Source of the DNA: a virus
Strand: one strand, 5' to 3'
Length of the DNA stretch: 64,000 nt
Virus record (IMG/VR): IMGVR_UViG_3300013132_000036
Span: 1 to 64,000 of that record
How positions within the stretch are numbered: the stretch's first letter is position 1; each line of letters begins with the position of its first letter. The notes below the pieces were generated by a model, which searched no databases, was not told the origin of the DNA, and was given only the letters and a program-made list of their open reading frames with translations. Of this stretch, positions 1 to 32,462 are shown piece by piece. The position numbers were made by a program, and so were the translations under genes.

Positions 1-132
1 CCTGGTTGGTCTCCTGGTTGGTCTCCTGGTTGGTCTCCTGGTTGGTCTCCTGGTTGGTCTCCTGGTTGGTCTCCTGGTTGGTCTCCTGGTTGATCTCCTG
101 GTTGGTCTCCTGGTTGGTCTCCTGGTTGGTCT
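1..132. repeat. 12-bp tandem repeat CCTGGTTGGTCT x11 (encodes GDQP on the minus strand); continues off window
   Basis: Directly visible; one unit variant (TTGATCT). Confidence 0.95.
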
Positions 133-941
133 CCTGGATCTCCTTCTTCTCCTGGATCTCCTTCTTCTCCTGGATCTCCTTCTTCTCCTGGATCTCCTTC
201 TTCTCCTGGATCTCCTTCTTCTCCCGGATCTCCTTCTTCTCCTGGATCTCCCTCTTCTCCTGGATCTCCCTCTTCTCCTGGATCTCCTGGGTCATCTCCT
301 TTTTGTATCACCATTTCTTGGTCCGGATCTGCTAATTCTTTATCCTCATCTTCAACCTTACCTGTAGTCTCTACAGTCTTTTGTACTTTAGGATTATTAA
401 TAAGCCTTTGTAGTTCTCCAGATTCTTCGAGCGCATCATATATGTCTTCTGCTCTCATTCCTTCAAATCTTGGATCATATAGACCTTCTCTGTTACCCAT
501 TTCATCTACAGGGAATTCAAATCCAGCTTCATCTTTAAGTAATGGATTTATTGCATAGTCGCATGCTATGTTCCATCCCATAGGATCTCTGCTTCCTCTC
601 CTATCCATATGATCACCGATGCAATGTAATATCTCGTGACACAAAACTAATCTTAGAGCTGCCTCAGATTGTCTCATAACAAATTCAGGATGGAATATTA
701 TATCCCTCCCATTTGTACACATTGTTTTAGGATCAAGGTCACTAGATCCAAATATATTAACGTGGCTAAGAAGCTCAGCATAAAATCCCTGGTTTATATT
801 TAACCAAAGTATAACTCTTCTGATTTTTTTATTAACCTCATCTGGATCATATGAGGTAGATTCATTTATAAATCTAACGTAATTAGAGAAAGATGTTATT
901 ACTTTTCCCGTTTTATATTTGTTCTCGTTTAACTTTCTCAT
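3..941 (-). CDS. DUF2201-N-type HExxH metallopeptidase (MoxR partner) with acidic repeat linker; runs off the window (missing from ORF track)
   Basis: Own translation from ATG 941 (overlaps the AAA stop, ATGA): MRKLNENKYKTGKVITSFSNYVRFINES...PKTMCTNGRDIIFHPEFV...VLCHEILHC...WNIACDYAINPLL..., then GDPGEE and GDQP repeats; open to position 3. Confidence 0.88.
   Translation of the reverse strand, partial: MRKLNENKYKTGKVITSFSNYVRFINESTSYDPDEVNKKIRRVILWLNINQGFYAELLSHVNIFGSSDLDPKTMCTNGRDIIFHPEFVMRQSEAALRLVLCHEILHCIGDHMDRRGSRDPMGWNIACDYAINPLLKDEAGFEFPVDEMGNREGLYDPRFEGMRAEDIYDALEESGELQRLINNPKVQKTVETTGKVEDEDKELADPDQEMVIQKGDDPGDPGEEGDPGEEGDPGEEGDPGEEGDPGEEGDPGEEGDPGEEGDPGEEGDPGDQPGDQPGDQPGDQPGDQPGDQPGDQPGDQPGDQPGDQPGDQP
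133..285. repeat. 18-bp tandem repeat CCTGGATCTCCTTCTTCT x8 plus a partial unit (encodes GDPGEE, acidic Gly-X-Y)
   Basis: Directly visible; variants are synonymous in the minus-strand frame. Confidence 0.95.
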
Positions 942-2437
942 CCCTGTAGTCCTTTATCTTTAGCTCCCTTAGTGATAAGTAAAGCAGCTTTATGTTTTAT
1001 CTCATCCTCTGGAGTGGATGAAGACCCTCCGAACTTGAACTGTGGATATTTTGATAGTATGTCTTTGTATAGCCAGCTTAGAGGTTCTAATTCGCTATAT
1101 CTATTGAAATATTCCATCACGTTATAAAGCTTCTGTGTGTCGTATGTTCTGACTCTTTTCATTACCATTTCGATAAGTCCATAAAGTACGCTCTTTGTTG
1201 ATTGTGCTTCTGATACAATAGGAGCTGACATTGGGTTATTAATCATACTCTCCATATCTGCATCCGTAACCTTTCTTAGAATCTCTAAGTAAGCAACAAA
1301 TTTACCTGCTGCTTCTGGACCAACTTGATCATAGAAAATATCCATTATGTCCTGTCTAGAAATATCCCTCCATGAATCTACGCCTTTGTAGTTAATCTCA
1401 TCATTAAGTATTAATGCCCCATCTGTCCAAGATCTAGGGGTAGGATAGTTAAGAGATTTTTTATCTGCATCCAGATTGTGGAAATAATCAGGGTTGAATG
1501 TTAGGAAAGTAACTAACTCAGGAAGTATCTTCTCATTTTTATCTGCCCAAGAAGCATATCCCTCTATAGTAGGTACGTAATTTTTAATGGTGAATCGGTC
1601 AGCTAATGCAAAATCGAAATCTGCAACACCTTCTGCTTCTTCCGGTCTGTTACCAGCTGCTACGATTACCCATCTATCCGGTAATTTATAAGGACCTATT
1701 TCTCCTTTCTGTACGAATTGCATGATGGAGTTAAGAACTGCTTTATTAGCTCTGTTCATTTCGTCCATAAATATTATACCTCCTCTTTCATCTTTACCAT
1801 TATCAGTAGGAAGTAGTATAGGTGGATTAGATCTAGTGAATCCTTTACCTGCACTGATTAATTTTCCACCTTCAACCTGAACAGGCTCTACGTCATGTCT
1901 ACTAGGAATACCCAAGAAATCCTCGGGGTTCATGAATTGAAGGTCTAATTTCATTACAGGAACACCCAACTCATCTGCTGCTTGTCCTACTATTTCAGTT
2001 TTACCAATACCAGGAGCTCCGTAAATAAATATAGGTTTAGCTCTACCACCTCTTTCTTTACTCCTATACAATCTTATTACGTCTTGCTTTAATTGATCCG
2101 CAGAGATGTTTCTTACACTCTGATCCTCCCCAGTATATTCCAAAGGGATCCTTGCTTCTTTGAGAGGATTTACCCCCATTTCAAATTCTTGCATCTGTTT
2201 AAAGATAGATCCATTCTCAGGTAAGAATAGCATAACAGTAGGAAGGCCTTTCTTAGGTCCATAAGGAATAGGAGCTACTAATCCATCTACTATGCTCTTT
2301 AAAAATTTACCGGTCCATCCGAAAAATCTTCTAGCATAATCTTTAATAGTTGAAAGGAATCCTTCATTTATTCCTGTTGGGTTGTATGATTCATTAACGA
2401 AATCATTAAAGTTCTTTATTCTCTTAGACATCTTCAT
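938..2437 (-). CDS. MoxR-like AAA+ ATPase (paralog 1) with N-terminal capsid-targeting-like leader
   Basis: Walker A GAPGIGKT, Walker B IIFMDEMNR, sensor AAGNR, ALADRF, PTPRSW; directly upstream of a DUF2201-type peptidase. Confidence 0.9.
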   Translation of the reverse strand: MKMSKRIKNFNDFVNESYNPTGINEGFLSTIKDYARRFFGWTGKFLKSIVDGLVAPIPYGPKKGLPTVMLFLPENGSIFKQMQEFEMGVNPLKEARIPLEYTGEDQSVRNISADQLKQDVIRLYRSKERGGRAKPIFIYGAPGIGKTEIVGQAADELGVPVMKLDLQFMNPEDFLGIPSRHDVEPVQVEGGKLISAGKGFTRSNPPILLPTDNGKDERGGIIFMDEMNRANKAVLNSIMQFVQKGEIGPYKLPDRWVIVAAGNRPEEAEGVADFDFALADRFTIKNYVPTIEGYASWADKNEKILPELVTFLTFNPDYFHNLDADKKSLNYPTPRSWTDGALILNDEINYKGVDSWRDISRQDIMDIFYDQVGPEAAGKFVAYLEILRKVTDADMESMINNPMSAPIVSEAQSTKSVLYGLIEMVMKRVRTYDTQKLYNVMEYFNRYSELEPLSWLYKDILSKYPQFKFGGSSSTPEDEIKHKAALLITKGAKDKGLQG

Positions 2438-2450
2438 TTTTTAGATATGT

Positions 2451-2458
2451 TATATATC
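2451..2458 (-). promoter_or_regulatory. Putative late promoter GATATATA (AAA/peptidase operon 1)
   Basis: Motif recurs shortly upstream of many structural and tagged genes. Confidence 0.7.
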
Positions 2459-15672: not shown

Positions 15673-15701
15673 GTTATAGAATAGTTTATAGATTAAATTT
15701 C
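15673..15701 (-). promoter_or_regulatory. Putative early/middle promoter, variant GAAATTTA-N15-TATAAC
   Basis: Same 29-bp spacing, weaker sequence match. Confidence 0.45.
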
Positions 15702-16352
15702 ATTTAATTTTTTAAATATTAAGGAAGAAACTTCCTCGAGACCTTTGGCAGCCGATATTTCTAAGAAATTACCACCATTTCTCATGGATTCTATCATGGG
15801 TAATGTCTGATCGTTGTACTCTTCCATTCTTTTTTCAAAAGCTTTCTCACTTTTGTCGTCAGATCTTCCTGATGATTTTCCTCTGTTAATAATTCTTTTC
15901 TTTAACAAATCCTCAGGTCCGTTTAAAAAGAAAACATATACAAGCTTTAATTTGTTTACCCTACAGATCTCTTCAAAAATATCTCTTTGTGCAAGGTTTC
16001 TGGGGTATCCATCAAATATAAATCCCCTAGGATCATGATGCTTAGAATAATCTTTAAGATATGCTATTAGTTCTTTTCCTACTAGATCATCTGGAAGTAA
16101 TTCTCCAGTCTTCATCATTTTTTTAATGTCCTTATCATCAGATTGCCTTAATATATCTCCAGTAGAAACGTGCTTCCATCTCATACCTTTAGATATTATT
16201 TTGGCCTGTGTTCCTTTACCACATCCAGGTGGACCGGTTAAAATTATGCAGGGAATCTCTTCTAAATTTTCTTTGCCATCAATATCTCCAAATTCTTTTA
16301 CAAATTCTTTGAAGTTACTTACTTTCTTTGGATTATTTTTTTTGCTTTCCAT
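15693..16352 (-). CDS. adk: Adenylate kinase (short LID) with extra N-terminal leader
   Basis: GPPGCGKGTQ, HVSTGDILR, GELLPD, FDGYPR, GRSDD. Confidence 0.93.
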   Translation of the reverse strand: MESKKNNPKKVSNFKEFVKEFGDIDGKENLEEIPCIILTGPPGCGKGTQAKIISKGMRWKHVSTGDILRQSDDKDIKKMMKTGELLPDDLVGKELIAYLKDYSKHHDPRGFIFDGYPRNLAQRDIFEEICRVNKLKLVYVFFLNGPEDLLKKRIINRGKSSGRSDDKSEKAFEKRMEEYNDQTLPMIESMRNGGNFLEISAAKGLEEVSSLIFKKLNEI

Positions 16353-25506: not shown

Positions 25507-25686
25507 TTAAGCTTTAGTGTTTTTAGTTTCTTGTACATTAACTCTTAAATCCTGAGCTAATTTCTTAAGCTCTTGACAAGCTGTTCTTACACGTGTACCA
25601 GCAGACTTGTTTCCTTTTACATAGAAAGCTTCCGTGTCTTTTTCCATGCTTGCTACTAATTCCTTGATTTTTTCGTAATTTTCCAT
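25507..25686 (-). CDS. Histone H1-like (Hc1 family, Bacteroidota-type) 59-aa protein (not in ORF track)
   Basis: Own translation MENYEKIKELVASMEKDTEAFYVKGNKSAGTRVRTACQELKKLAQDLRVNVQETKNTKA, with the KGNKSAGTRxR signature. Confidence 0.85.
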   Translation of the reverse strand: MENYEKIKELVASMEKDTEAFYVKGNKSAGTRVRTACQELKKLAQDLRVNVQETKNTKA

Positions 25687-25702
25687 TGTTAAATATTTTA
25701 TT

Positions 25703-25731
25703 ATTCTACTGCAAATCTATTAAAATGTTTC
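25703..25731 (-). promoter_or_regulatory. Putative early/middle promoter GAAACATT-N15-TAGAAT
   Basis: 29-bp architecture upstream of the Hc1-like gene. Confidence 0.65.
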
Positions 25732-25764
25732 ATTTTTTAAAGGATTTGGTAAAAAAAATATAAT

Positions 25765-26076
25765 TTATTCGTTTACGCTGGAAGCTTTTAGGATTCTTTT
25801 ACCTAGAGTAGTTAGAGAGAAATAGTTTGCTTCTTCCTCTTGGACTTTATATCTGATATATTTTTTTTGTCCTCTAACCCAATTCATGGAAGGCTTCCTT
25901 CCTGAAGCATCTTCTGGTACGCTATCTAAGAATTCCGTAAGCTCTCTTTTGGTTACTTTCTCCTTCTCTCCTATAAAGGAAAGAACTTTTATTGTTGTGG
26001 CAGATGGTTTAGCCCAAGCTATTGGAATCCTAGATTCATTTATAAATTCTTTATATGAAAGAATATTACTAATCAT
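25765..26076 (-). CDS. Winged-helix-like protein with capsid-targeting-like leader
   Basis: NILSYKEFINES; C-terminal YFSLTTLGKRIL wing signature. Confidence 0.6.
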   Translation of the reverse strand: MISNILSYKEFINESRIPIAWAKPSATTIKVLSFIGEKEKVTKRELTEFLDSVPEDASGRKPSMNWVRGQKKYIRYKVQEEEANYFSLTTLGKRILKASSVNE

Positions 26077-26605
26077 GATCCCTTCTAGTATAAATTAAAG
26101 TTTCCTCATCAGGTCCTTCTTGAACGCTCCATTTTTCATAGCTCCATTCTCCCATTAATGTTTCTACTCTGTCTTTATACTCTGAAAAATCAATATTTAG
26201 ATTCATAGTAATCTCATCATAGATTTTAGAGACCTTAGGATTATTTTGTAAATAGTCTTTTATTGCTTCACTCAGGATTCGGTAAAATCTCATGAACTCT
26301 GATCTGGTAAGATTGAAATCGTCATCCTCTCTAGATTTGTAATCAGTATCATTTACTAAATAGTCATCAAGTATTCCAATTTTAATTGGCTCCACTGATA
26401 AAACACAATAACTATTTTCTGCTTCATCTATAGAAGATCCCCTGGAAAGTTTACCTATATTAATAATAAATCCTAGATTTTCCTCCTCGCCCTCTATTTT
26501 AAAGTAGTACTTGGAAACCTTCCCGTCTTTCTTTTTAGCAAAGAAGTCTCTTCCGAAACCATCTTCTTCCATTAAAAAATTCTCAAATAATTTTATATGC
26601 TTCAT
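26069..26605 (-). CDS. Hypothetical protein with capsid-targeting-like leader
   Basis: MKHIKLFENFLMEE. Confidence 0.7.
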   Translation of the reverse strand: MKHIKLFENFLMEEDGFGRDFFAKKKDGKVSKYYFKIEGEEENLGFIINIGKLSRGSSIDEAENSYCVLSVEPIKIGILDDYLVNDTDYKSREDDDFNLTRSEFMRFYRILSEAIKDYLQNNPKVSKIYDEITMNLNIDFSEYKDRVETLMGEWSYEKWSVQEGPDEETLIYTRRDHD

Positions 26606-26607
26606 AA

Positions 26608-26880
26608 TTAACTATCTCCTTTTCTTGGAAAAATTGCGGATGTGTTAGGAATATATCCTTTTTTCTTTCTCTTGAATATTTCACCTCTAACAATGTTTCC
26701 ATAGTATTTATCTATAAGGTTCCATCCTTCCTCTAACTCTTGTAAATCTACATCATCTAATTTAGAAAACTCCTCCTTAACTAGATTTATCCTTTCCATA
26801 GCCTCTTCTAAAAGTTTTTTACTATTAGAAAGGTCATACTTATAGGTATGACCCTCTTTTATTTGGCTATATTTTTTCAT
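26608..26880 (-). CDS. Hypothetical protein
   Basis: MKKYSQIKEG short leader; tightly coupled to the AAA gene. Confidence 0.65.
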   Translation of the reverse strand: MKKYSQIKEGHTYKYDLSNSKKLLEEAMERINLVKEEFSKLDDVDLQELEEGWNLIDKYYGNIVRGEIFKRKKKGYIPNTSAIFPRKGDS

Positions 26881-26881
26881 T

Positions 26882-28486
26882 CTAAAATGTTATTCCTAGT
26901 TTAGCTCCCCATTTGTCTGCTAAAGGACCAAGACAAGAGTACATTGCAGGGTCTGTTTGTAATTCTGGGTGTAAATTAAAGAATGTTGCAAGAGCTGCTG
27001 ATCCTTCCTCTTCAAGATCTGTTCTCTCTAACCATTTAGCATAGTTACAAACTTCAGTAGGGGTCAGTTTAATTTCTTTACTTTTTCTAATAACTGCTCC
27101 AAATAAAGCGTGAGTGTAATCCGGTTTATTTCCTTTGTCTGCAGGGATTGGTGCTTTTGCCGGATCAGTATATGGTAAAATAAGTTCTCTAACCGGAATG
27201 TCCTTAGCAACCTTATAAAAATTTAAGAAAGATACAGCAGCATCATTACCTACGTTTTTAGAAAATTCCTTCTTTATAACATCCTCTGGGATATTAGTAA
27301 TTCCTTTTGCTTCTAAATTTCTAATTACTCTTGATAAAGAGTTAGAGGCATCAACCCAAGCCCTAGGGGTAGGGTATTTAGTTTTCTTAGTGGCAGGATC
27401 TAAATTATGGAAGAAGTCAGGCTGGAATTCTAAGAAATCTAAAAGTTCGGGTAAAACAACATTTTTATATCTGCTTCTTTCCACATAAGATCTAAATCCT
27501 TTTATGGTAGGCACGAAGTTAACTGCTTGAAATCTGTCTCTAAGTGCAGTTCCTAATTCTTTAACAGATTTATCATCCTGCTTTCTGTTACCTGCTGCTA
27601 CAATATACCATCTTTCTGGAATATTATAATTGTTTCCAATTCTTCTTGATTGTGCAAGTTTCATAAATATTTTAATAACCTCCTCTGGCATACGATTTAA
27701 CTCATCAATAAATATTATTCCACCTTTACCATTCCTACCATTATCATAAGGAAGAATATCTATGTTGATATTTGATCTTGTTACTCCCGCACCTGCGTAA
27801 TTTCTCTCTGGATCTGGCTCTTTCATAGTTACTACACTAGGTACACCAGCAAAATCAACAGGTTCAGCATTTTCTCCATCTACATTGACTAAAGAAAGCT
27901 TATGCCCATATAATTCTTTTCCTAATTCGTCACAAACCTGTGCTACTATCTGTGTTTTACCAATCCCAGGAGCTCCGTAAATAAAAATAGGCTTAACATC
28001 TAGAATTCCCCTGTACATGTCATCTAATTCGTCTTCAGTTGCCCCGGCTTTCTTAGCAGCATCCATTTCATCAGCAATTCTGAAGATCTCTCTCATGTTT
28101 GTTTTGATGTCCTCCTTTATTTCCGGTTCGGAGTAATTAGGTACGTCGTCTGAAATAGGATATTCAAGGGGAACTGCATCTTCCCATAAAAAACTTTCAC
28201 CAAGGGTCTCTGGTTTTTCAAGATTACCCATGTTATAGTATTCTGTTCCTTTATAGAAATTATTAACCTGACTTAAAATAGATTCACTCTTAGAATCGTC
28301 AAATAAAGCAACCCTCGGGGTTCCTGTTTTAGGGCCAGAAGATATCAATTTAACTAAACCCGACTTAACCGCATTGTATAGGCCTTTTGCCCATGAAGAT
28401 ATTTTCGATCCTAAATTGGATAAAAATCCCTCACTCATATATGATTCATTTACGAATTCATCGAAATTATAAATTCTTTTAGCCAT
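26882..28486 (-). CDS. MoxR-like AAA+ ATPase (paralog 2) with N-terminal capsid-targeting-like leader
   Basis: GAPGIGKT, IIFIDELNR, AAGNR, ALRDRF, PTPRAW; GATATATA at 28509-28516. Confidence 0.9.
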   Translation of the reverse strand: MAKRIYNFDEFVNESYMSEGFLSNLGSKISSWAKGLYNAVKSGLVKLISSGPKTGTPRVALFDDSKSESILSQVNNFYKGTEYYNMGNLEKPETLGESFLWEDAVPLEYPISDDVPNYSEPEIKEDIKTNMREIFRIADEMDAAKKAGATEDELDDMYRGILDVKPIFIYGAPGIGKTQIVAQVCDELGKELYGHKLSLVNVDGENAEPVDFAGVPSVVTMKEPDPERNYAGAGVTRSNINIDILPYDNGRNGKGGIIFIDELNRMPEEVIKIFMKLAQSRRIGNNYNIPERWYIVAAGNRKQDDKSVKELGTALRDRFQAVNFVPTIKGFRSYVERSRYKNVVLPELLDFLEFQPDFFHNLDPATKKTKYPTPRAWVDASNSLSRVIRNLEAKGITNIPEDVIKKEFSKNVGNDAAVSFLNFYKVAKDIPVRELILPYTDPAKAPIPADKGNKPDYTHALFGAVIRKSKEIKLTPTEVCNYAKWLERTDLEEEGSAALATFFNLHPELQTDPAMYSCLGPLADKWGAKLGITF

Positions 28487-28520
28487 TTTTATTCTATTAT
28501 TTACCTTGTATATATCTTTT

Positions 28521-29528
28521 TTATATTCTTTTTACGTTCTTGTTGGCAAGAACAATGTCTATTCTTTCACCAAAAGGTTGGGAGTTAGGATAAGGCTCAT
28601 CATTGAAGGTTAGGAATACCCAAATACATCGGTCACCATATTCAGAAATGTCATAGTCATTTTCAGAAGGAAAACCTGCCTCACCGTCAGTAAAGTATAT
28701 AAAAACTGTGGGTGTTTCACCTTCCTGATCTATCATGTTTTTTTGAACCCATTTGAATGGGGGCCAAAAATAAGTTCCTCCTCCTCCCGCTATTTTATTA
28801 TAATCCGGAAGATCTCCTGGCTCTAATATATCTGGTTCATAAACTTGTGTGTCACAATACAATATAACTGTTTTATTTGGGTTATACTCTTGAGTTATAT
28901 TCGTAACTTCTCCTAGAAATTGTTCTATCATTTCTCTTGTAATAGATCCAGAGGTATCTATTGCAACAACTACACTCTGAAAATCTTCCTTATATCTCTT
29001 ATAGCCATATTGAGCTTTTCCTGATCCCAGAAATCTTCTAGAGGGTAATGTATATTTGGATTTAGATATAGCTTGATCTATATACTTTGAAAGTTCTTCT
29101 TTCCAATCTATAACAGGTCTTTTAGTTTTTTGAATTGCTCTCTTTAGCTGAGCCGGGATATTTCCTGCATTAGTACCTGCAATTCTAGTTATATCTTCCC
29201 ATTCTTCGGCTAATGTTTCACCATTAAGTCCGCTGTCTCCTCCGAGATCCCCAAGTTCCCCAGGTCTAAGAATTTCCCCTGGATTATACCCATCCTTGAC
29301 TTTAGGTCCTCCTCCTCCTGTTTCGGTCCTTTTAAATTCAGATTCTTCTTCCTTTATTTTACCATCTTTGTCCCTCTCCGGAACTTCCCTATCTGGAACG
29401 TCATCTCCCCACTCATCTATATTTTCTGGCTTAGGTATAGGAAAATCGGGGGGAAAATCTCCGGTTCCGCCTCCGCCGCCTCCTTCTCTAATTTCTTGTA
29501 TTCTTACGCCTGTTATTTTTGCTTTCAT
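28521..29528 (-). CDS. vWA domain protein (DUF2201 C-terminal type)
   Basis: IDWKEEL, PSRR, MIDAS VVAIDTSGS, GGGGT, YFTDG. Confidence 0.88.
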   Translation of the reverse strand: MKAKITGVRIQEIREGGGGGGTGDFPPDFPIPKPENIDEWGDDVPDREVPERDKDGKIKEEESEFKRTETGGGGPKVKDGYNPGEILRPGELGDLGGDSGLNGETLAEEWEDITRIAGTNAGNIPAQLKRAIQKTKRPVIDWKEELSKYIDQAISKSKYTLPSRRFLGSGKAQYGYKRYKEDFQSVVVAIDTSGSITREMIEQFLGEVTNITQEYNPNKTVILYCDTQVYEPDILEPGDLPDYNKIAGGGGTYFWPPFKWVQKNMIDQEGETPTVFIYFTDGEAGFPSENDYDISEYGDRCIWVFLTFNDEPYPNSQPFGERIDIVLANKNVKRI

Positions 29529-29562
29529 ATATTAAATCCTTTTTTTCATAGAACGTATTAAA

Positions 29563-30423
29563 TTAGAAGTCTAATTCTTTTTCTATATCATCTCCTAATA
29601 TATTTTCACCCTTAGCTTTTCTCTGTAGATATTCTTTAACCTTATTTTTCGGTATAGGATCATACTCAAGCTCACCTGATGTCTCGTCTATAGACTTAAC
29701 TATACCATAAGAATCATTATCTTTATCGTATATAATGTCACCAACTACAGGATCCTTTGGCGGTGGTGGAGGTGGTGGAGGTGTGGTCGGAGGATATCCT
29801 TCCTCAGGAACATATCCATTAGAAAGAAGCTTCTCATATATCCATTCTGCACTCCTGTTTACGAATTCATAATCATAAGGAACATGGCCACATCCAGGAT
29901 ATAATGATCCCTCTACCATTTTTCCTATCCCTCCTTTAGAAACAGGTTTAGGCTTATCGGAATTTATCGTGCTTGTATCTACGGGTGTTAACAACTGATT
30001 AAGTGCATAATCTGCTGCAACGTTCCATACACCTGCTTTAGTTTTATCCTTAGGACATCTTAAAAAGTGTACCAATGTATTGTGTAAAACCTCATGTGCA
30101 ATAACCCATATTATCTCCTCATCTGTACGACCTAGAACAAAATCTGGATCATAGTGTATACTAACACCATCAGTTGCCATTGTTTTATATTCAAGATTTC
30201 TGTTTTCTCTGATAATCAATCGAGATAACATCGATGCAAAAAATGGATATGATCCGTTTAGTAAAAATACACACGCCCTCATTTTTTTCAGAGCTGCGGG
30301 ATTGTGTGGTGTTTTGTTTCTTTCGTCTAAATAGATTGCTTCATTTAAACTGTTATACTCTGAATAACCAAATCTAGCATATTCAAAAATTGCAAAATCA
30401 CTGAAGGATAATATTCTTTTCAT
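29563..30423 (-). CDS. DUF2201-N-type HExxH metallopeptidase with capsid-targeting-like leader
   Basis: TMATDG, IAHEVLH, WNVAADYALN, SAEWIYE; poly-Pro linker; GATATATA at 30442-30449. Confidence 0.88.
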   Translation of the reverse strand: MKRILSFSDFAIFEYARFGYSEYNSLNEAIYLDERNKTPHNPAALKKMRACVFLLNGSYPFFASMLSRLIIRENRNLEYKTMATDGVSIHYDPDFVLGRTDEEIIWVIAHEVLHNTLVHFLRCPKDKTKAGVWNVAADYALNQLLTPVDTSTINSDKPKPVSKGGIGKMVEGSLYPGCGHVPYDYEFVNRSAEWIYEKLLSNGYVPEEGYPPTTPPPPPPPPKDPVVGDIIYDKDNDSYGIVKSIDETSGELEYDPIPKNKVKEYLQRKAKGENILGDDIEKELDF

Positions 30424-30440: not shown

Positions 30441-32462
30441 CTATATATCCTCTTCAGAACCGTTTATTTGTTTGGTAAATTCATTGAAAAGAACTGCTAC
30501 TGATTTAGGAACTTTACTTTTAAATTGTTGAAAATCTCCGTCTTTTATGTAAGTCCTAATATCATTATTATTTGACCATTGAGGAGTTTTATATATTTCT
30601 ATATCTCCTCCCTCTAAGTCGTATTTATTTCTTACCCATTCTCTCTGTAGAATCATGTTTTCAAAATCTCTTTCCCCTATACATACTGACGCAGGGTTAG
30701 CATATTTAACAACTGCATTTAGAGCGTCTTCTAAAAGATTGGACGGTATTATCTGATACCCTGCAAAAAGCTTATTATTCTCCGATGTTAGAGATCCTAT
30801 TGATTTTCTTATTAAATCTTCAGAGAATGGATATTTTGATCCAGGCTCACTTCCTGGATGAACCACACAAAGGAAAACAGGTAAATTATTTTCCTTCTTT
30901 AATCTGGTACACATTTTTAAATGCCCATTATTAAAAGGCTGGAATTTCCCGATTACTATATTTACTTTCTGGTTGTTCTCGTTTAATATCTTAATCTTTC
31001 TTTTCTCTTTATGTGTAGTTACTACTTTTTTAAAATCTTTAAATGAAAAAAATTCGGATGCGTCTTCGCTTTTTTTCTCCTCCTCAGTTATAACCGTAGG
31101 CGTTTCTGATTCATTAAGAGAAACAGGATCTTCAGAAGAAGATCCCTCTATTATTTCTTCCAGCTCATCTATTTCATCTTCTTCTTCGCTCATTGTTGGA
31201 TTAAATTTGCTACCTGCTTTTTTAAACCAAACAAAGCTAGGAACTCCTAAAGATTCCTCTACTAAATCTTTTTTCTTAGCGTTTATATAGCCAGCGATTT
31301 CTTCAACTAGCATGTTAAACTGTTGTATTAGACCTTCTGTGAAAAATCCATGTGGTTTTCTTTTAAGCTTCCTGAAGGAATTAAGAATCATCTGGAGAAT
31401 GTCTATATAAACTTCATCATCTTCTATAGACTTTAACACCTCTTCATCGATTATTAAATCCTTGTTTATTTCAAATCCCTCTGATTTTAAATATTCAGGT
31501 TTTTGAAAATCAGCGCCTACGTATTTTTCTCCCTCCTCATATACAAATCTCTTAAATACATTAAAAACAAAACTGATGTATCTTTCTTCCGGATCGTTTC
31601 CTTCAGCTGTGAAATTTTCTACACCAGTCTCTAATATGAAATTCATTACATCTATAAGACATAAAGAATAAACATCGCTAGGGAAGTATGAAGTCTGGGT
31701 AACTTTTCTACTTTTGTTTATCTCATGGAAAACTGGATCAACCATTTTTGCTAAAACTGTTTCCTCCTTACCATCTTCATCTTCGAATCTGAAAACAAGA
31801 GAATCTATTTCCCCCTGTAGATCCTTACCAAGGGTTGTTCTTTCTACGTTTTTGTTTAATATAGAAATTAAATAGTTACTAAAGCTAGCAGTTTTAAATT
31901 TACTTTTAAGATCCATTAAAGGAGTTGAAAGGAAATCCATTATCGCTATCTTCTGATCCCTATTAAGTTTACCTTGGAATATAATAGGGGATCTCTCTAC
32001 TTCTAGCTTATCTGCCCACTCGTCTAGCTCGTTCTTATCCTGTAAATTTTTAATAACGTCGCCGAATTCATCTCTAACAACAACGTGTGTTAAAACAAGA
32101 TGATTTTTTGGTACCCTGTCGTATTCGATCCTAACAGGTTTTTTATTGGGAAAGTAAACCATTCCAAATCTCCACCCTTTAGGAAGCTGATCAGTGATTT
32201 CAAGTGACAATGATTCTATATAAATTATAGGCTTTTCGTAATATTTCATTAATATCCTATCAACCTTAGTTATAGGGTTATCTTGATCTTTTTTATAAAA
32301 AGATATATTATCTCCAGTAAAATCCCTCTCGAAAGAAAAAGAAGGTCCATCTAAATTCTCAGTTACTGTTAAATTTTTATTGAAAAGGCTTTCAATGAAG
32401 GACTTTCCTTTTTTCTCGTATATGTCCGTTAAGTATTTTATTCCAGCCATTAGTTTAAACAA
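30441..32462 (-). CDS. Fusion: RNA-ligase-like nucleotidyltransferase fold (motif I Lys replaced) plus HIGH-family cytidylyltransferase-like domain
   Basis: TVTENLDG (cf. TEKLDG), IIFQG, DSLVFR, LAKMVD; C-terminal IGKFQPFNNGH; acidic linker. Confidence 0.65.
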   Translation of the reverse strand: MFKLMAGIKYLTDIYEKKGKSFIESLFNKNLTVTENLDGPSFSFERDFTGDNISFYKKDQDNPITKVDRILMKYYEKPIIYIESLSLEITDQLPKGWRFGMVYFPNKKPVRIEYDRVPKNHLVLTHVVVRDEFGDVIKNLQDKNELDEWADKLEVERSPIIFQGKLNRDQKIAIMDFLSTPLMDLKSKFKTASFSNYLISILNKNVERTTLGKDLQGEIDSLVFRFEDEDGKEETVLAKMVDPVFHEINKSRKVTQTSYFPSDVYSLCLIDVMNFILETGVENFTAEGNDPEERYISFVFNVFKRFVYEEGEKYVGADFQKPEYLKSEGFEINKDLIIDEEVLKSIEDDEVYIDILQMILNSFRKLKRKPHGFFTEGLIQQFNMLVEEIAGYINAKKKDLVEESLGVPSFVWFKKAGSKFNPTMSEEEDEIDELEEIIEGSSSEDPVSLNESETPTVITEEEKKSEDASEFFSFKDFKKVVTTHKEKRKIKILNENNQKVNIVIGKFQPFNNGHLKMCTRLKKENNLPVFLCVVHPGSEPGSKYPFSEDLIRKSIGSLTSENNKLFAGYQIIPSNLLEDALNAVVKYANPASVCIGERDFENMILQREWVRNKYDLEGGDIEIYKTPQWSNNNDIRTYIKDGDFQQFKSKVPKSVAVLFNEFTKQINGSEEDI

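What the first reader, a model, noticed from the sequence alone, without database searches (positions are those of the whole stretch)
26882..30423. Late-expressed, leader-tagged MoxR AAA+ / vWA / HExxH peptidase module, present in two paralogous copies
Seen: copy 2 is peptidase (29563-30423), vWA (28521-29528) and AAA (26882-28486); copy 1 is AAA (938-2437) followed by a peptidase (<3-941), so gene order differs. Both AAAs share an unusual ~100-aa N-terminal extension (EGFLS...GLV..I..GPK.G.P.V.LF....SI..Q...F...E...PLEY). Both AAAs and both peptidases carry the capsid-targeting-like leader, and both loci have GATATATA. Known: MoxR ATPases act with vWA adaptors to remodel proteins, and DUF2201 normally fuses peptidase and vWA in one chain; in copy 2 they are separate genes. 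Inference: a virion-borne ATP-dependent unfoldase/protease with two specificities, acting in head maturation or ejection, or injected to destroy host (defence) proteins. I do not know of a described equivalent.
Basis: partly seen in the sequence, partly recalled or inferred. Interest (0 to 1): 0.82.

Follow-up and report, generated by a model that had tools for sequence, protein, structure and literature searches.

The report
Head-tagged, split phage MoxR–vWA–peptidase modules
A fragment of a large uncultured T4-related phage carries two old copies of a known ATPase, adaptor and zinc-peptidase gene set, and the ATPase and peptidase start with a leader like the tag phage T4 uses to load proteins into its head, so they may travel in the virus particle, though no experiment shows this.

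Summary
The window encodes two paralogous modules of a MoxR-class AAA+ ATPase and a DUF2201-type zinc peptidase. Copy 2 also has a separate vWA gene. Copy 1 runs off the contig start, and a 92%-identical relative shows that it too has a separate vWA gene.

The peptidase/vWA split is not an assembly error. It recurs in 27 of 30 related loci whose ATPase has the same leader and N-terminal extension.

Three of the four tagged proteins fit [FY]xxF[ILV]xE, the pattern of T4's MKTYQEFIAE capsid-targeting sequence. Relatives encode a gp21-type head protease and a gp23-type capsid protein with an LNE|S propeptide site. GATATATA precedes AAA1, AAA2 and pep2, the sheath and fibre genes here, and the head-protease gene in a relative.

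Late expression and head targeting are therefore supported by sequence but unproven. Injection and "two specificities" are speculation.

The module itself is already described: Iyer et al. 2021 for T4-related jumbo phages, PHROGs 1297/1314 in N4-like phages, and virion-borne MoxR/vWA in archaeal virus ATV.

This scan reported the same split, tagged module earlier on other genomes. This window adds the two-paralog state, the joint loss of both tags in one lineage, re-fusion in another, and a deletion remnant.

The parts
29563..30423 (-). pep2: zincin peptidase (286 aa). It has a leader (residues 1-15), a core with HEVLH-x4-H (H110, E111, H114, H119), a poly-Pro linker, and a small C-terminal beta domain.
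   Evidence: Pfam DUF2201_N 60.1 bits. phrog_1314 positions 13-151. Invariant residues in A2. AF2 mean pLDDT 79.4, with residues 1-30 and 210-221 below 50. Best fold matches are zincins, e.g. 1g12_A Z 8.1, rmsd 3.1, 101 aligned.
28521..29528 (-). vWA2: vWA adaptor (335 aa) with a Gly-rich, acidic N-terminal region and a complete MIDAS (D191, T192, S193, S195; T280, D281). It has no leader and no promoter motif of its own.
   Evidence: Pfam DUF2201 67 bits plus the tail of DUF2201_N. phrog_1314 positions 175-390. Invariant residues in A3.
26882..28486 (-). AAA2: MoxR-class AAA+ ATPase (534 aa). Walker A is GAPGIGKT (171-178), Walker B is IFIDE (258-262), followed by AAGNR and ALRDRF.
   Evidence: AF2 mean pLDDT 76.1. 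Foldseek hits NorQ (9qhd_B, TMt 0.55) and CbbQ2 (6l1q_A, TMt 0.56) beside RuvB.
28172..28486 (-). N-terminal extension of AAA2 (residues 1-105). It consists of the leader KRIYNFDEFVNE|S, a small folded unit (about 30-86, with the SGPKxGxP motif), and a low-confidence linker that ends at invariant E102 just before VPLEY.
   Evidence: invariant F8, G51, G55, Q73, E102. pLDDT is below 50 for residues 1-28 and 87-105. Among 1.84 billion representatives, 32 proteins match at E<=0.001, mostly at the N-terminus of proteins of about 500-600 aa; the six short ones I read are cut or degenerate copies of this ATPase.
938..2437 (-). AAA1: paralogous MoxR-class ATPase (499 aa) with the same leader (KRIKNFNDFVNE|S) and N-terminal extension. 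It overlaps pep1 by 4 nt.
3..941 (-). pep1: paralogous zincin peptidase, 3'-truncated by the contig start inside a GEEGDP/PGDQ repeat. The leader VITSFSNYVRFINE|S lies at residues 13-28.
   Evidence: The full-length 353-aa ortholog, followed by a separate vWA1 gene, is seen in G002.
30442..30449 (-). GATATATA 18 nt upstream of the pep2 start (putative late promoter).
28509..28516 (-). GATATATA 22 nt upstream of the AAA2 start.
2451..2458 (-). GATATATA 13 nt upstream of the AAA1 start.
26608..26880 (-). 90-aa ORF directly after AAA2. It is a possible accessory gene; whether it belongs to the module is uncertain.
   Evidence: An 89- or 90-aa ortholog follows the type-2 ATPase in 7 of 16 loci inspected. 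No Pfam or PHROG match.

Best explanation
These are two anciently diverged copies of the phage 'MoxR AAA+ ATPase plus metallopeptidase-vWA' module. In both copies the second protein is stably divided into a zincin peptidase gene and a vWA adaptor gene.

Shown:
- All catalytic motifs are intact.
- The split is conserved across the clade.
- The ATPase and the peptidase, but not the vWA, begin with a conserved leader that fits the T4 capsid-targeting pattern.
- Their genes follow the 8-mer GATATATA, which also precedes head and tail genes.

Inferred:
- The genes are transcribed late.
- The leader docks the ATPase and the peptidase on the scaffold core of the prohead.
- A gp21-type protease trims them after [ILV]-x-E. 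For the ATPase it may also cut after the invariant E102, in a linker predicted with low confidence.
- The vWA rides along bound to the peptidase.

Most speculative step: the trimmed proteins stay in the filled head and leave with the DNA, as T4 internal proteins do. In the next cell, where ATP is available, the ATPase ring would work through the vWA MIDAS site to remodel a bound target protein, which the zincin would then cut.
For: Module identity.

The split is real and old:
- 5 of 5 close relatives have it.
- Copy 1 is also split in G002.
- Of 30 distinct loci whose ATPase has the N-extension and strict leader, 27 are split, 1 is fused and 2 are cut by contig ends. Of the other 44 loci, 27 are fused and 7 split.

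Leader:
- It is enriched at N-termini: 8 ORFs observed against 0.19 in shuffles.
- It is conserved at the protein level with synonymous codon differences.
- It persists across ATPase homologs down to 33% identity; F8 is invariant and V12 at least 90% conserved.
- It matches T4 IPII/IPIII MKTYQEFIAE at the positions that PMC9026906 (passages) names for targeting (4, 7) and processing (8, 10).

Head machinery in the lineage:
- G001 has Peptidase_S77 (40.3 bits) and Gp23 (E 5e-38).
- Gp23 is over the cut-off in 19 of 38 records that hold a MoxR homolog, including G005, G007, G008, G012 and G016 of this clade.
- The capsid propeptide reads HSLNE|SAGAYN in G001, G012 and G016, against T4 gp23 FLTE|AEIGG.
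- Leader-tagged genes lie directly after the capsid gene.

Promoter:
- GATATATA lies 10 nt before the protease gene in G001 and before the sheath and fibre genes here.
- In G002, 19 of 58 leader ORFs have it within 45 nt upstream, against 16 of 294 other ORFs (odds ratio 8.5, p 4.6e-8).

Coupling of the tags: in L051 the ATPase lacks the whole N-extension and the peptidase lacks its leader, while neighbouring genes keep theirs.

Peptidase-vWA binding: weak support only. The score is 0.58 and the best of 3 controls is 0.00. The mark was reached by 58 of 80 solved complexes and 2 of 110 mismatched pairs, but scores of 0.60 or under came from only 7 of those 80 and from both mismatches that passed. 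The runs agree in at least 63% of contacts and the partner pLDDT is at least 67. My own alignments were used, so the counts hold only roughly.
Against: - There are no proteomic, expression or cleavage data for any member. No cultured relative covers the N-extension: 0 of 741 phage records cover 80% or more of AAA2.
- The window's own contig (about 31% complete) holds no head protease, so the head machinery is known only from relatives.
- The vWA has no leader.
- pep2's leader departs from the strict motif.
- A loose pattern flags about 58 of 352 ORFs of G002 as leader-like, false positives included. Here the leader set includes a P-loop kinase-like protein. That is a very large cargo set if all are packaged, which allows a different meaning for the leader.
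- The lineages L051 (split, untagged) and L063/L064 (re-fused, untagged) keep the module without tags. Its core function therefore does not need head targeting.
- The same gene pair sits among non-structural genes in N4-like phages and in phage 0305phi8-36 (PMC2147016 passages).
- An AAA+ ring needs ATP and six subunits.
Confidence: 0.4

Rival explanations
1. Virion-assembly chaperone and protease, as proposed by Iyer et al. 2021. The module acts late in the infected cell, or inside the prohead, on structural proteins, in the way ATV p618/p892 acts in tail development. It is then degraded or left behind and has no role in the next cell.
For: - PMC7824862 proposes this role for the fused pair in group 2.2 jumbo phages (passages).
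- ATV gives a precedent (PMC4124505, passages).
- The late-type promoter motif is shared with head and tail genes.
- Leader-tagged genes sit in the head gene cluster.
Against: - A gp21-type protease and a scaffold are already present for head maturation.
- The untagged lineages and the N4-like phages keep the pair without any T4-type head system.
- No target is known.
Confidence: 0.25
2. A cytoplasmic module unrelated to the particle, for example host takeover or remodelling of a host or phage complex. The shared leader would then have another meaning, such as a localisation, turnover or recognition tag, possibly one read by this module itself.
For: - The modules lie among replication genes: polymerase halves, helicase, primase, SSB and topoisomerase.
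- The leader is on roughly 15% of ORFs, including enzymes.
- The pair occurs in phages without T4-type heads.
- The tags can be lost while the module is kept.
Against: - The leader fits the T4 CTS at its functional positions.
- The capsid propeptide of relatives ends in the same L-N-E|S.
- The leader is associated with the promoter motif of head and tail genes.
- T4's own internal-protein genes also lie among non-structural genes such as denV, e and the tRNA genes.
Confidence: 0.2
3. The peptidase/vWA split, or the second copy, is an assembly or sequencing artefact or a decaying pseudogene.
For: The contig is a metagenomic fragment that breaks inside a repeat of pep1.
Against: - The same split, with intact motifs, occurs in independent contigs: 27 of 30 tagged loci and both paralog types.
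- Both halves have invariant catalytic and MIDAS residues.
- Five further contigs each gave one type-1 and one type-2 locus: L030+L062, L033+L057, L035+L061, L044+L060 and L039+L067.
Confidence: 0.01

Closest known systems
MoxR AAA+ ATPase plus metallopeptidase-vWA pair of group 2.2 (T4-related) jumbo phages (Iyer et al. 2021, PMC7824862); PHROGs 1297 and 1314, also in N4-like phages and cyanophage S-TIM5
   Same: The same two families sit next to each other. The host phage lineage has a gp23-type capsid. The paper proposes a link to virion assembly.
   Different: Here the peptidase and vWA are separate genes, and there are two diverged modules per genome with permuted gene order. The ATPase has a roughly 100-residue N-terminal extension. 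The ATPase and peptidase carry a CTS-like leader and a GATATATA motif. The passages I read do not mention any of these features.
T4 internal proteins IPI, IPII and IPIII and their capsid targeting sequence
   Same: An N-terminal [YF]-x-x-F-[ILV]-x-E leader (T4: MKTYQEFIAE|A). The genes are scattered among non-structural genes. A gp21-type protease is present in the lineage.
   Different: The cargo would be large multi-subunit enzymes rather than small basic proteins. The leader is not always at residue 1 (pep1 has it at residues 13-28). Packaging and cleavage are untested.
ATV p618 (MoxR) and p892 (vWA) of Acidianus two-tailed virus
   Same: A MoxR ATPase found in virions that binds a vWA partner and is assigned a chaperone role in virion morphogenesis (PMC4124505, passages).
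   Different: It is an archaeal spindle virus with no peptidase domain and no CTS-type leader. I made no sequence comparison with it here.
Cellular MoxR-vWA pairs NorQ-NorD and CbbQ-CbbO
   Same: The predicted fold of AAA2 matches NorQ and CbbQ2, there is a vWA partner with a MIDAS site, and the general adaptor mechanism applies (PMC7159879, passages).
   Different: Those pairs mature or reactivate specific metalloenzymes and have no peptidase. Sequence identity is only 14-16%.

Membership tests
MoxR-class AAA+ ATPase (Pfam AAA_5 / phrog_1297) | Profile match above the curated cut-off | tested here: met
   AAA_5 scores 41.3 and 38.1 bits against a cut-off of 22. phrog_1297 gives E 1.8e-51 and 3.1e-52. 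The MoxR-specific models are below cut-off: bpMoxR 25.4 against 27 and AAA_3 24.5 against 27 (AAA1).
MoxR-class AAA+ ATPase (Pfam AAA_5 / phrog_1297) | Walker A, Walker B, sensor-1 Asn and the Arg of the DRF motif | tested here: met
   GAPGIGKT, IFIDE, AAGNR and ALRDRF are present. G171, P173-T178, D261, E262, N300, R301 and R318 are invariant in 23 sequences.
MoxR-class AAA+ ATPase (Pfam AAA_5 / phrog_1297) | Fold like solved MoxR proteins | tested here: inconclusive
   NorQ (TMt 0.51-0.55) and CbbQ2 (TMt 0.56, rmsd 7.5) are among the hits, but RuvB, FtsH and MCM score alike.
MoxR-class AAA+ ATPase (Pfam AAA_5 / phrog_1297) | Adjacent vWA partner gene | tested here: met
   vWA2 lies directly upstream. 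vWA1 lies downstream of pep1 in G002.
DUF2201 metallopeptidase-vWA protein (PF13203 + PF09967 / phrog_1314) | Both domains match above cut-off | tested here: met
   pep2 60.1 bits, pep1 89.3 bits and vWA2 67 bits.
DUF2201 metallopeptidase-vWA protein (PF13203 + PF09967 / phrog_1314) | HExxH zinc site and zincin fold | tested here: met
   H110, E111, H114 and H119 are invariant. The best fold matches are zincins: 1g12_A Z 8.1, rmsd 3.1, 101 aligned; 3e11_B Z 7.2; 4qhf_A Z 7.0. A Z near 8 is middling, so the fold call rests on these matches together with the motif.
DUF2201 metallopeptidase-vWA protein (PF13203 + PF09967 / phrog_1314) | MIDAS motif DxSxS...T...D in the vWA domain | tested here: met
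   D191, T192, S193, S195, T280 and D281 are invariant in 25 sequences.
DUF2201 metallopeptidase-vWA protein (PF13203 + PF09967 / phrog_1314) | Peptidase and vWA in one polypeptide | tested here: not met
   They are separate ORFs with a 34-nt spacer. The same holds in 27 of 30 tagged loci. This is a split variant of the family.
T4-type capsid-targeting (CTS) propeptide | N-terminal aromatic-x-x-Phe-aliphatic-x-Glu pattern, as in T4 positions 4, 7, 8 and 10 | tested here: met
   AAA2 has FDEFVNE, AAA1 FNDFVNE and pep1 YVRFINE. pep2 has the variant FSDFAIFE. The T4 sequence was read and the functional positions come from PMC9026906.
T4-type capsid-targeting (CTS) propeptide | The phage has a gp21-type prohead protease and a gp23-type capsid | tested here: inconclusive
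   They are absent from the window's own 84.5-kb fragment. They are present in relative G001, and gp23 is present in five other clade records.
T4-type capsid-targeting (CTS) propeptide | Protein found in heads with the leader removed | not testable with these tools
   There is no cultured member, so virion proteomics is needed.

The most novel reading that the evidence does not exclude
A whole clade of T4-related jumbo phages loads two complete ATP-driven MoxR-vWA-zincin remodelling machines into the capsid through T4-type targeting leaders and injects them with the DNA. An AAA+ protease system would then act on host proteins, for example defence proteins, before any phage gene is expressed. 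The division of the peptidase-vWA protein into two chains would be an adaptation to this route.
Probability: 0.2. Interest if true: 0.8.

Novelty: new variant of a known kind. Interest (0 to 1): 0.5.

Why it matters
If the tags do what the T4 tag does, phage heads can deliver large energy-driven enzyme machines as well as small inhibitors, which would widen what an injected protein can be. It would also give the widespread but uncharacterised phage MoxR/DUF2201 pair a first testable place and time of action. The conserved leader is a candidate packaging tag for engineering cargo into non-coli T4-like phages.

As it stands, the module family is known and its function remains untested. The new content is the architecture: the split, the two paralogs, the N-terminal extension and the tags.

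Tried and rejected
- blastn of the locus against cultured phages gave no match.
- Sequence searches of the PDB gave nothing useful: AAA2 hit only a P-loop stretch at E 0.001, and pep2 and vWA2 had nothing below E 0.5.
- PADLOC and NCBIfam gave only sub-threshold P-loop hits. There is no sign of a known defence system.
- I suspected that the 'EGFLS' stretch after the leader marks homology with head-cluster proteins. BLASTP does not support it: E values were 1.9 to 6.2 against the L007 ORFs. Only the visual likeness of MNEGFF in one G016 ORF remains.
- I asked whether the N-extension is a mobile pro-domain on other enzymes. It is not: hits are essentially this ATPase family or its fragments.
- The sigma-70 promoter scan gave fewer sites than shuffles (23 against 30.2), and terminator-like sites were not clearly enriched.
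- The tree could not settle whether the two paralog types share one split event. Type 1 (9 rows, SH-aLRT 98) and type 2 (24 rows, 99) are each clades, but their relation to the fused forms is unresolved. Starred branches force at least 3 changes of state, and long branches make the deep nodes unsafe.
- The counts are crude. De-duplication was only by the ATPase C-terminus, near-identical loci remain, my Walker-A pattern missed distant ATPases, and L065 is scored 'fused' because of a second, cut DUF2201 gene at its edge although its own module is split.
- Literature searches: 'DUF2201' with 'phage' gave 4 papers, seen as a listing only and none about function. 'capsid targeting sequence' with 'jumbo phage' gave 3 papers, none on this clade. 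Supplements were not consulted. The supplementary tables of Iyer et al. may list the members.
- Recalled, not from any call: the T4 late promoter TATAAATA, that the gp23 cut lies after E65, and that N4 virions lack this gene pair.

Full report
WHAT IS THERE. The window is the first 64 kb of a single linear 84,523-base viral contig (34% G+C). CheckV rates it about 31% complete, which implies a genome of roughly 250-270 kb. All genes of the finding lie on the minus strand at the stated coordinates.

Copy 2 reads pep2 (286 aa), then a 34-nt spacer, vWA2 (335 aa), a 34-nt spacer holding GATATATA, and AAA2 (534 aa). Copy 1 reads AAA1 (499 aa) overlapping pep1 by 4 nt. pep1 runs off the contig, which begins inside its GEEGDP/PGDQ repeat.

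Pfam and PHROGs place the ATPases in AAA_5 / phrog_1297. They place the peptidases in DUF2201_N and vWA2 in the DUF2201 vWA-like family. pep2 and vWA2 cover the two halves of the 394-position phrog_1314 profile. The paralogs are old: the ATPases are 35% identical and the peptidases 33%.

The neighbours are replication genes: both halves of a split family-B polymerase, a helicase, a primase, SSB, topoisomerase subunits and RNR. Tail genes follow from about 39.4 kb.

THE SPLIT AND THE TWO COPIES ARE REAL.
- Five IMG/VR contigs carry orthologs of AAA2 at 73-86% identity. All five have separate peptidase and vWA genes, and one has two tandem vWA genes.
- Relative G002 (206 kb) holds copy 1 at 92% identity. 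There the order is AAA1, then pep1 (353 aa, ending in a small beta domain), then 2 nt later in another frame a separate vWA1 of 312 aa.
Copy 1 has a vWA gene beyond the window, and it is not fused.
- A profile-guided scan gave 80 loci, 74 after crude de-duplication. Of 30 loci whose ATPase has the N-extension and strict leader, 27 are split, 1 is fused and 2 are cut by contig ends. Of the remaining 44 loci, 27 are fused, 7 are split and 10 show one part or none.
- The gene order is either pep-vWA-AAA (type 2) or AAA-pep-vWA (type 1). Five further contigs each gave one locus of each type.
- On a quick peptidase-domain tree each type is a well-supported clade (SH-aLRT 98 and 99). Their relation to each other and to the fused forms is unresolved, so one split event or two cannot be told apart.
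- Three side lineages are informative. G001 has lost copy 1 and keeps a 146-aa remnant that joins the AAA1 N-terminus to the vWA1 C-terminus. L051 keeps a split module, but its ATPase (403 aa) lacks the whole N-extension and its peptidase lacks the leader, while neighbouring genes keep their leaders. L063/L064, nested inside the type-2 clade, are fused again and untagged.

THE PROTEINS LOOK ACTIVE.
- In 23 ATPases the Walker A, Walker B, AAGNR and DRF residues are invariant.
- In 24 peptidases H110, E111, H114, H119 and the WNxAxDYxxN stretch are invariant.
- In 25 vWA proteins the MIDAS residues are invariant.
- The AF2 model of AAA2 has mean pLDDT 76. It gives a confident AAA+ core that Foldseek matches to NorQ and CbbQ2 as well as to RuvB and others.
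- The AF2 model of pep2 has mean pLDDT 79. It gives a zincin core, a poly-Pro linker predicted with low confidence, and a small C-terminal beta domain. The best structural matches are small zincins (Z 8.1 to 7.0), which is middling on its own but fits the motif.
- A complex prediction for pep2 with vWA2 gave weak support only. The score was 0.58 and the best of 3 controls 0.00. The mark was reached by 58 of 80 solved complexes and 2 of 110 mismatched pairs, but scores of 0.60 or under came from only 7 of those 80 and from both mismatches that passed. The runs agree in at least 63% of contacts and the partner pLDDT is at least 67. My own alignments were used, so the counts hold only roughly. 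Because the two chains are halves of what is usually one protein, binding was likely beforehand. No solved DUF2201 structure turned up in the sequence or fold searches with pep2, or in the sequence search with vWA2.

THE N-TERMINAL EXTENSION.
- Both ATPases have about 100-130 residues ahead of the region that other phage homologs cover; phrog_1297 starts matching at residue 165 of AAA2.
- The extension is shared between the paralogs (E 1e-14).
- It is conserved in a large metagenomic family: 646 proteins at E<=1e-10 among 8000 scored, and most of the listed 120 cover 87-100% of the query.
- In 23 aligned members F8, G51, G55, Q73 and E102 are invariant.
- AF2 predicts residues 1-28 and 87-105 with low confidence (pLDDT below 50), with a small folded unit between them. 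So an invariant Glu sits in a linker that is probably flexible, just before the core motif VPLEY. I read this as a possible second protease site; that is inference only.
- A search of 1.84 billion representatives with residues 1-105 found 32 proteins, mostly matched at their N-terminus. The six short ones I read are cut or degenerate copies of this ATPase, so nothing points to a mobile pro-domain.

THE LEADER.
- The strict pattern [FY]xxF[ILV]xE lies in the first ~30 residues of 8 of 74 ORFs of the contig. Composition-preserving shuffles of the same N-termini give 0.19 on average, and there are 2 hits in about 25,300 internal positions.
- In G002 the figures are 15 of 352 ORFs against 0.83 in shuffles.
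- The codons differ at synonymous sites, and the distance of the leader from the start codon varies. It is therefore a peptide feature, not an RNA or DNA element.
- T4 IPII and IPIII begin MKTYQEFIAE. A review of T4 head assembly states that positions 4 and 7 carry targeting and positions 8 and 10 carry processing (PMC9026906, passages). AAA2 has F-D-E-F-V-N-E at the equivalent places.
- The lineage has the matching machinery. G001 encodes a 696-aa Peptidase_S77 protein followed by a Gp23-family capsid protein. Gp23 is over the cut-off in 19 of 38 records with a MoxR homolog, including five records of this clade.
- The capsid propeptide reads HSLNE|SAGAYN in three relatives. This resembles T4 gp23 FLTE|AEIGG, whose cut after E65 I recall rather than read.
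- Genes directly after the capsid gene also start with the leader.
- vWA2 and vWA1 have no leader. In some distant phages where DUF2201 is fused, the fused protein carries one (L069, L076).

THE PROMOTER MOTIF.
- GATATATA occurs 15 times in the window against 6.9 expected.
- Eleven of the 13 minus-strand sites lie 4-22 nt before a start codon, and a twelfth lies 42 nt before one. The genes so preceded include AAA1, AAA2, pep2, the putative sheath gene (start 42262), a collagen-like fibre gene (start 45924) and a further gene of the late gene block (start 58224).
- In G001 it lies 10 nt before the prohead protease gene.
- In G002, 36 of 49 sites lie within 45 nt upstream of a same-strand ORF. 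Leader ORFs are enriched among the genes that carry it (odds ratio 8.5, p 4.6e-8).
- There is no conserved upstream element, as with T4 late promoters (recalled).
- A different pattern, GAAACWTT-N15-TAWAAT, stands before the topoisomerase and SSB genes and not before these modules: 4 sites against 0.8 expected, a weak result.
- G002 encodes two sigma-70-family proteins.

WHAT IT MOST LIKELY IS. The module is a member of a described kind. Iyer et al. 2021 report a MoxR ATPase plus a vWA protein with an N-terminal metallopeptidase in T4-related (group 2.2) jumbo phages. They propose a role in virion assembly with peptidolytic processing of structural proteins (PMC7824862, passages). The same pair is annotated in many N4-like phages and in cyanophage S-TIM5. 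In archaeal virus ATV the MoxR p618 is a major virion protein that binds the vWA protein p892 (PMC4124505, passages).

What is particular to this clade is the architecture: the split, the two paralogs, the N-extension, the tags and the late motif. I commit, at about 0.4, to head loading through the leader, trimming by the gp21-type protease, and delivery with the DNA. The main rivals are an assembly-only role (0.25) and a cytoplasmic role in which the leader means something else (0.2).

Two facts shape these odds. The joint loss of both tags in L051 argues that the two tags serve one purpose. The same lineage also shows that the module works without them.

RELATION TO EARLIER NOTES OF THIS SCAN. 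The same split, tagged module was noted and followed up on other genomes. Those notes led me to the Iyer et al. paper, which I then read myself. Notes on this genome about the leader set, the GATATATA motif and the second promoter class agree with what I measured.

LIMITS. There is no cultured relative, no expression data and no proteomic data. Locus counts include near-duplicates. The tree used the quick method and has long branches.

Noticed in passing
window 3-335: pep1 carries about 9 GEEGDP and 11 PGDQ repeats between the peptidase core and its C-terminus, and the contig begins inside them. Pfam reads them as collagen or PT repeats. The G002 ortholog has a longer run.
   Followed up: partly
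L013 1438-1878 (record G001): A 146-aa ORF joins the leader and N-extension of AAA1 to the last ~60 residues of a vWA1. It is a deletion remnant of copy 1 in a phage that keeps copy 2.
   Followed up: partly
L030 3973-4956 and 4960-5967 (record G002): Two tandem vWA genes lie between pep2 and AAA2. The first is 61% identical to vWA2, and in part of the alignment it resembles type-1 vWA proteins.
   Followed up: no
L051 4096-7104; L063 4608-7275: Lineages inside the type-2 clade have lost the ATPase N-extension and the peptidase leader together. L051 is still split and L063/L064 are fused again.
   Followed up: partly
L024 15717-16577 and L026 1511-2392 (record G002): Two phage-encoded sigma-70-family proteins, one with regions 1.2, 2, 3 and 4 and one with regions 1.2, 2 and 4. 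They are candidates for reading the phage-specific promoter motifs.
   Followed up: no
L001 1296-4084 (record G001): The replicative helicase gene is 513-515 aa in the window and other relatives. Here it is broken into ORFs of 336, 289 and 312 aa, and the last begins with a stretch ending ...HNYIANGILVSNC. This looks like an intein or homing-element insertion.
   Followed up: no
window 15693-16352: A P-loop kinase-like protein (weak PHROG hits to thymidylate and dNMP kinases) carries the leader at residues 14-20 (KVSNFKEFVKE).
   Followed up: no
window 25507-26605: Downstream of AAA2 there is conserved synteny across the clade: a 178-aa and a 103-aa leader-tagged protein, then a 59-aa ORF whose N-terminus (MENYEKIKELV...) is conserved across the relatives.
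   Followed up: no
record G002, about 77.2-81.4 kb: An array of nine paralogous genes of about 115-230 aa, all starting MT[RQ]E.FI..L...GY.Y...GDK[IL]VV, on the strand opposite to most genes.
   Followed up: no
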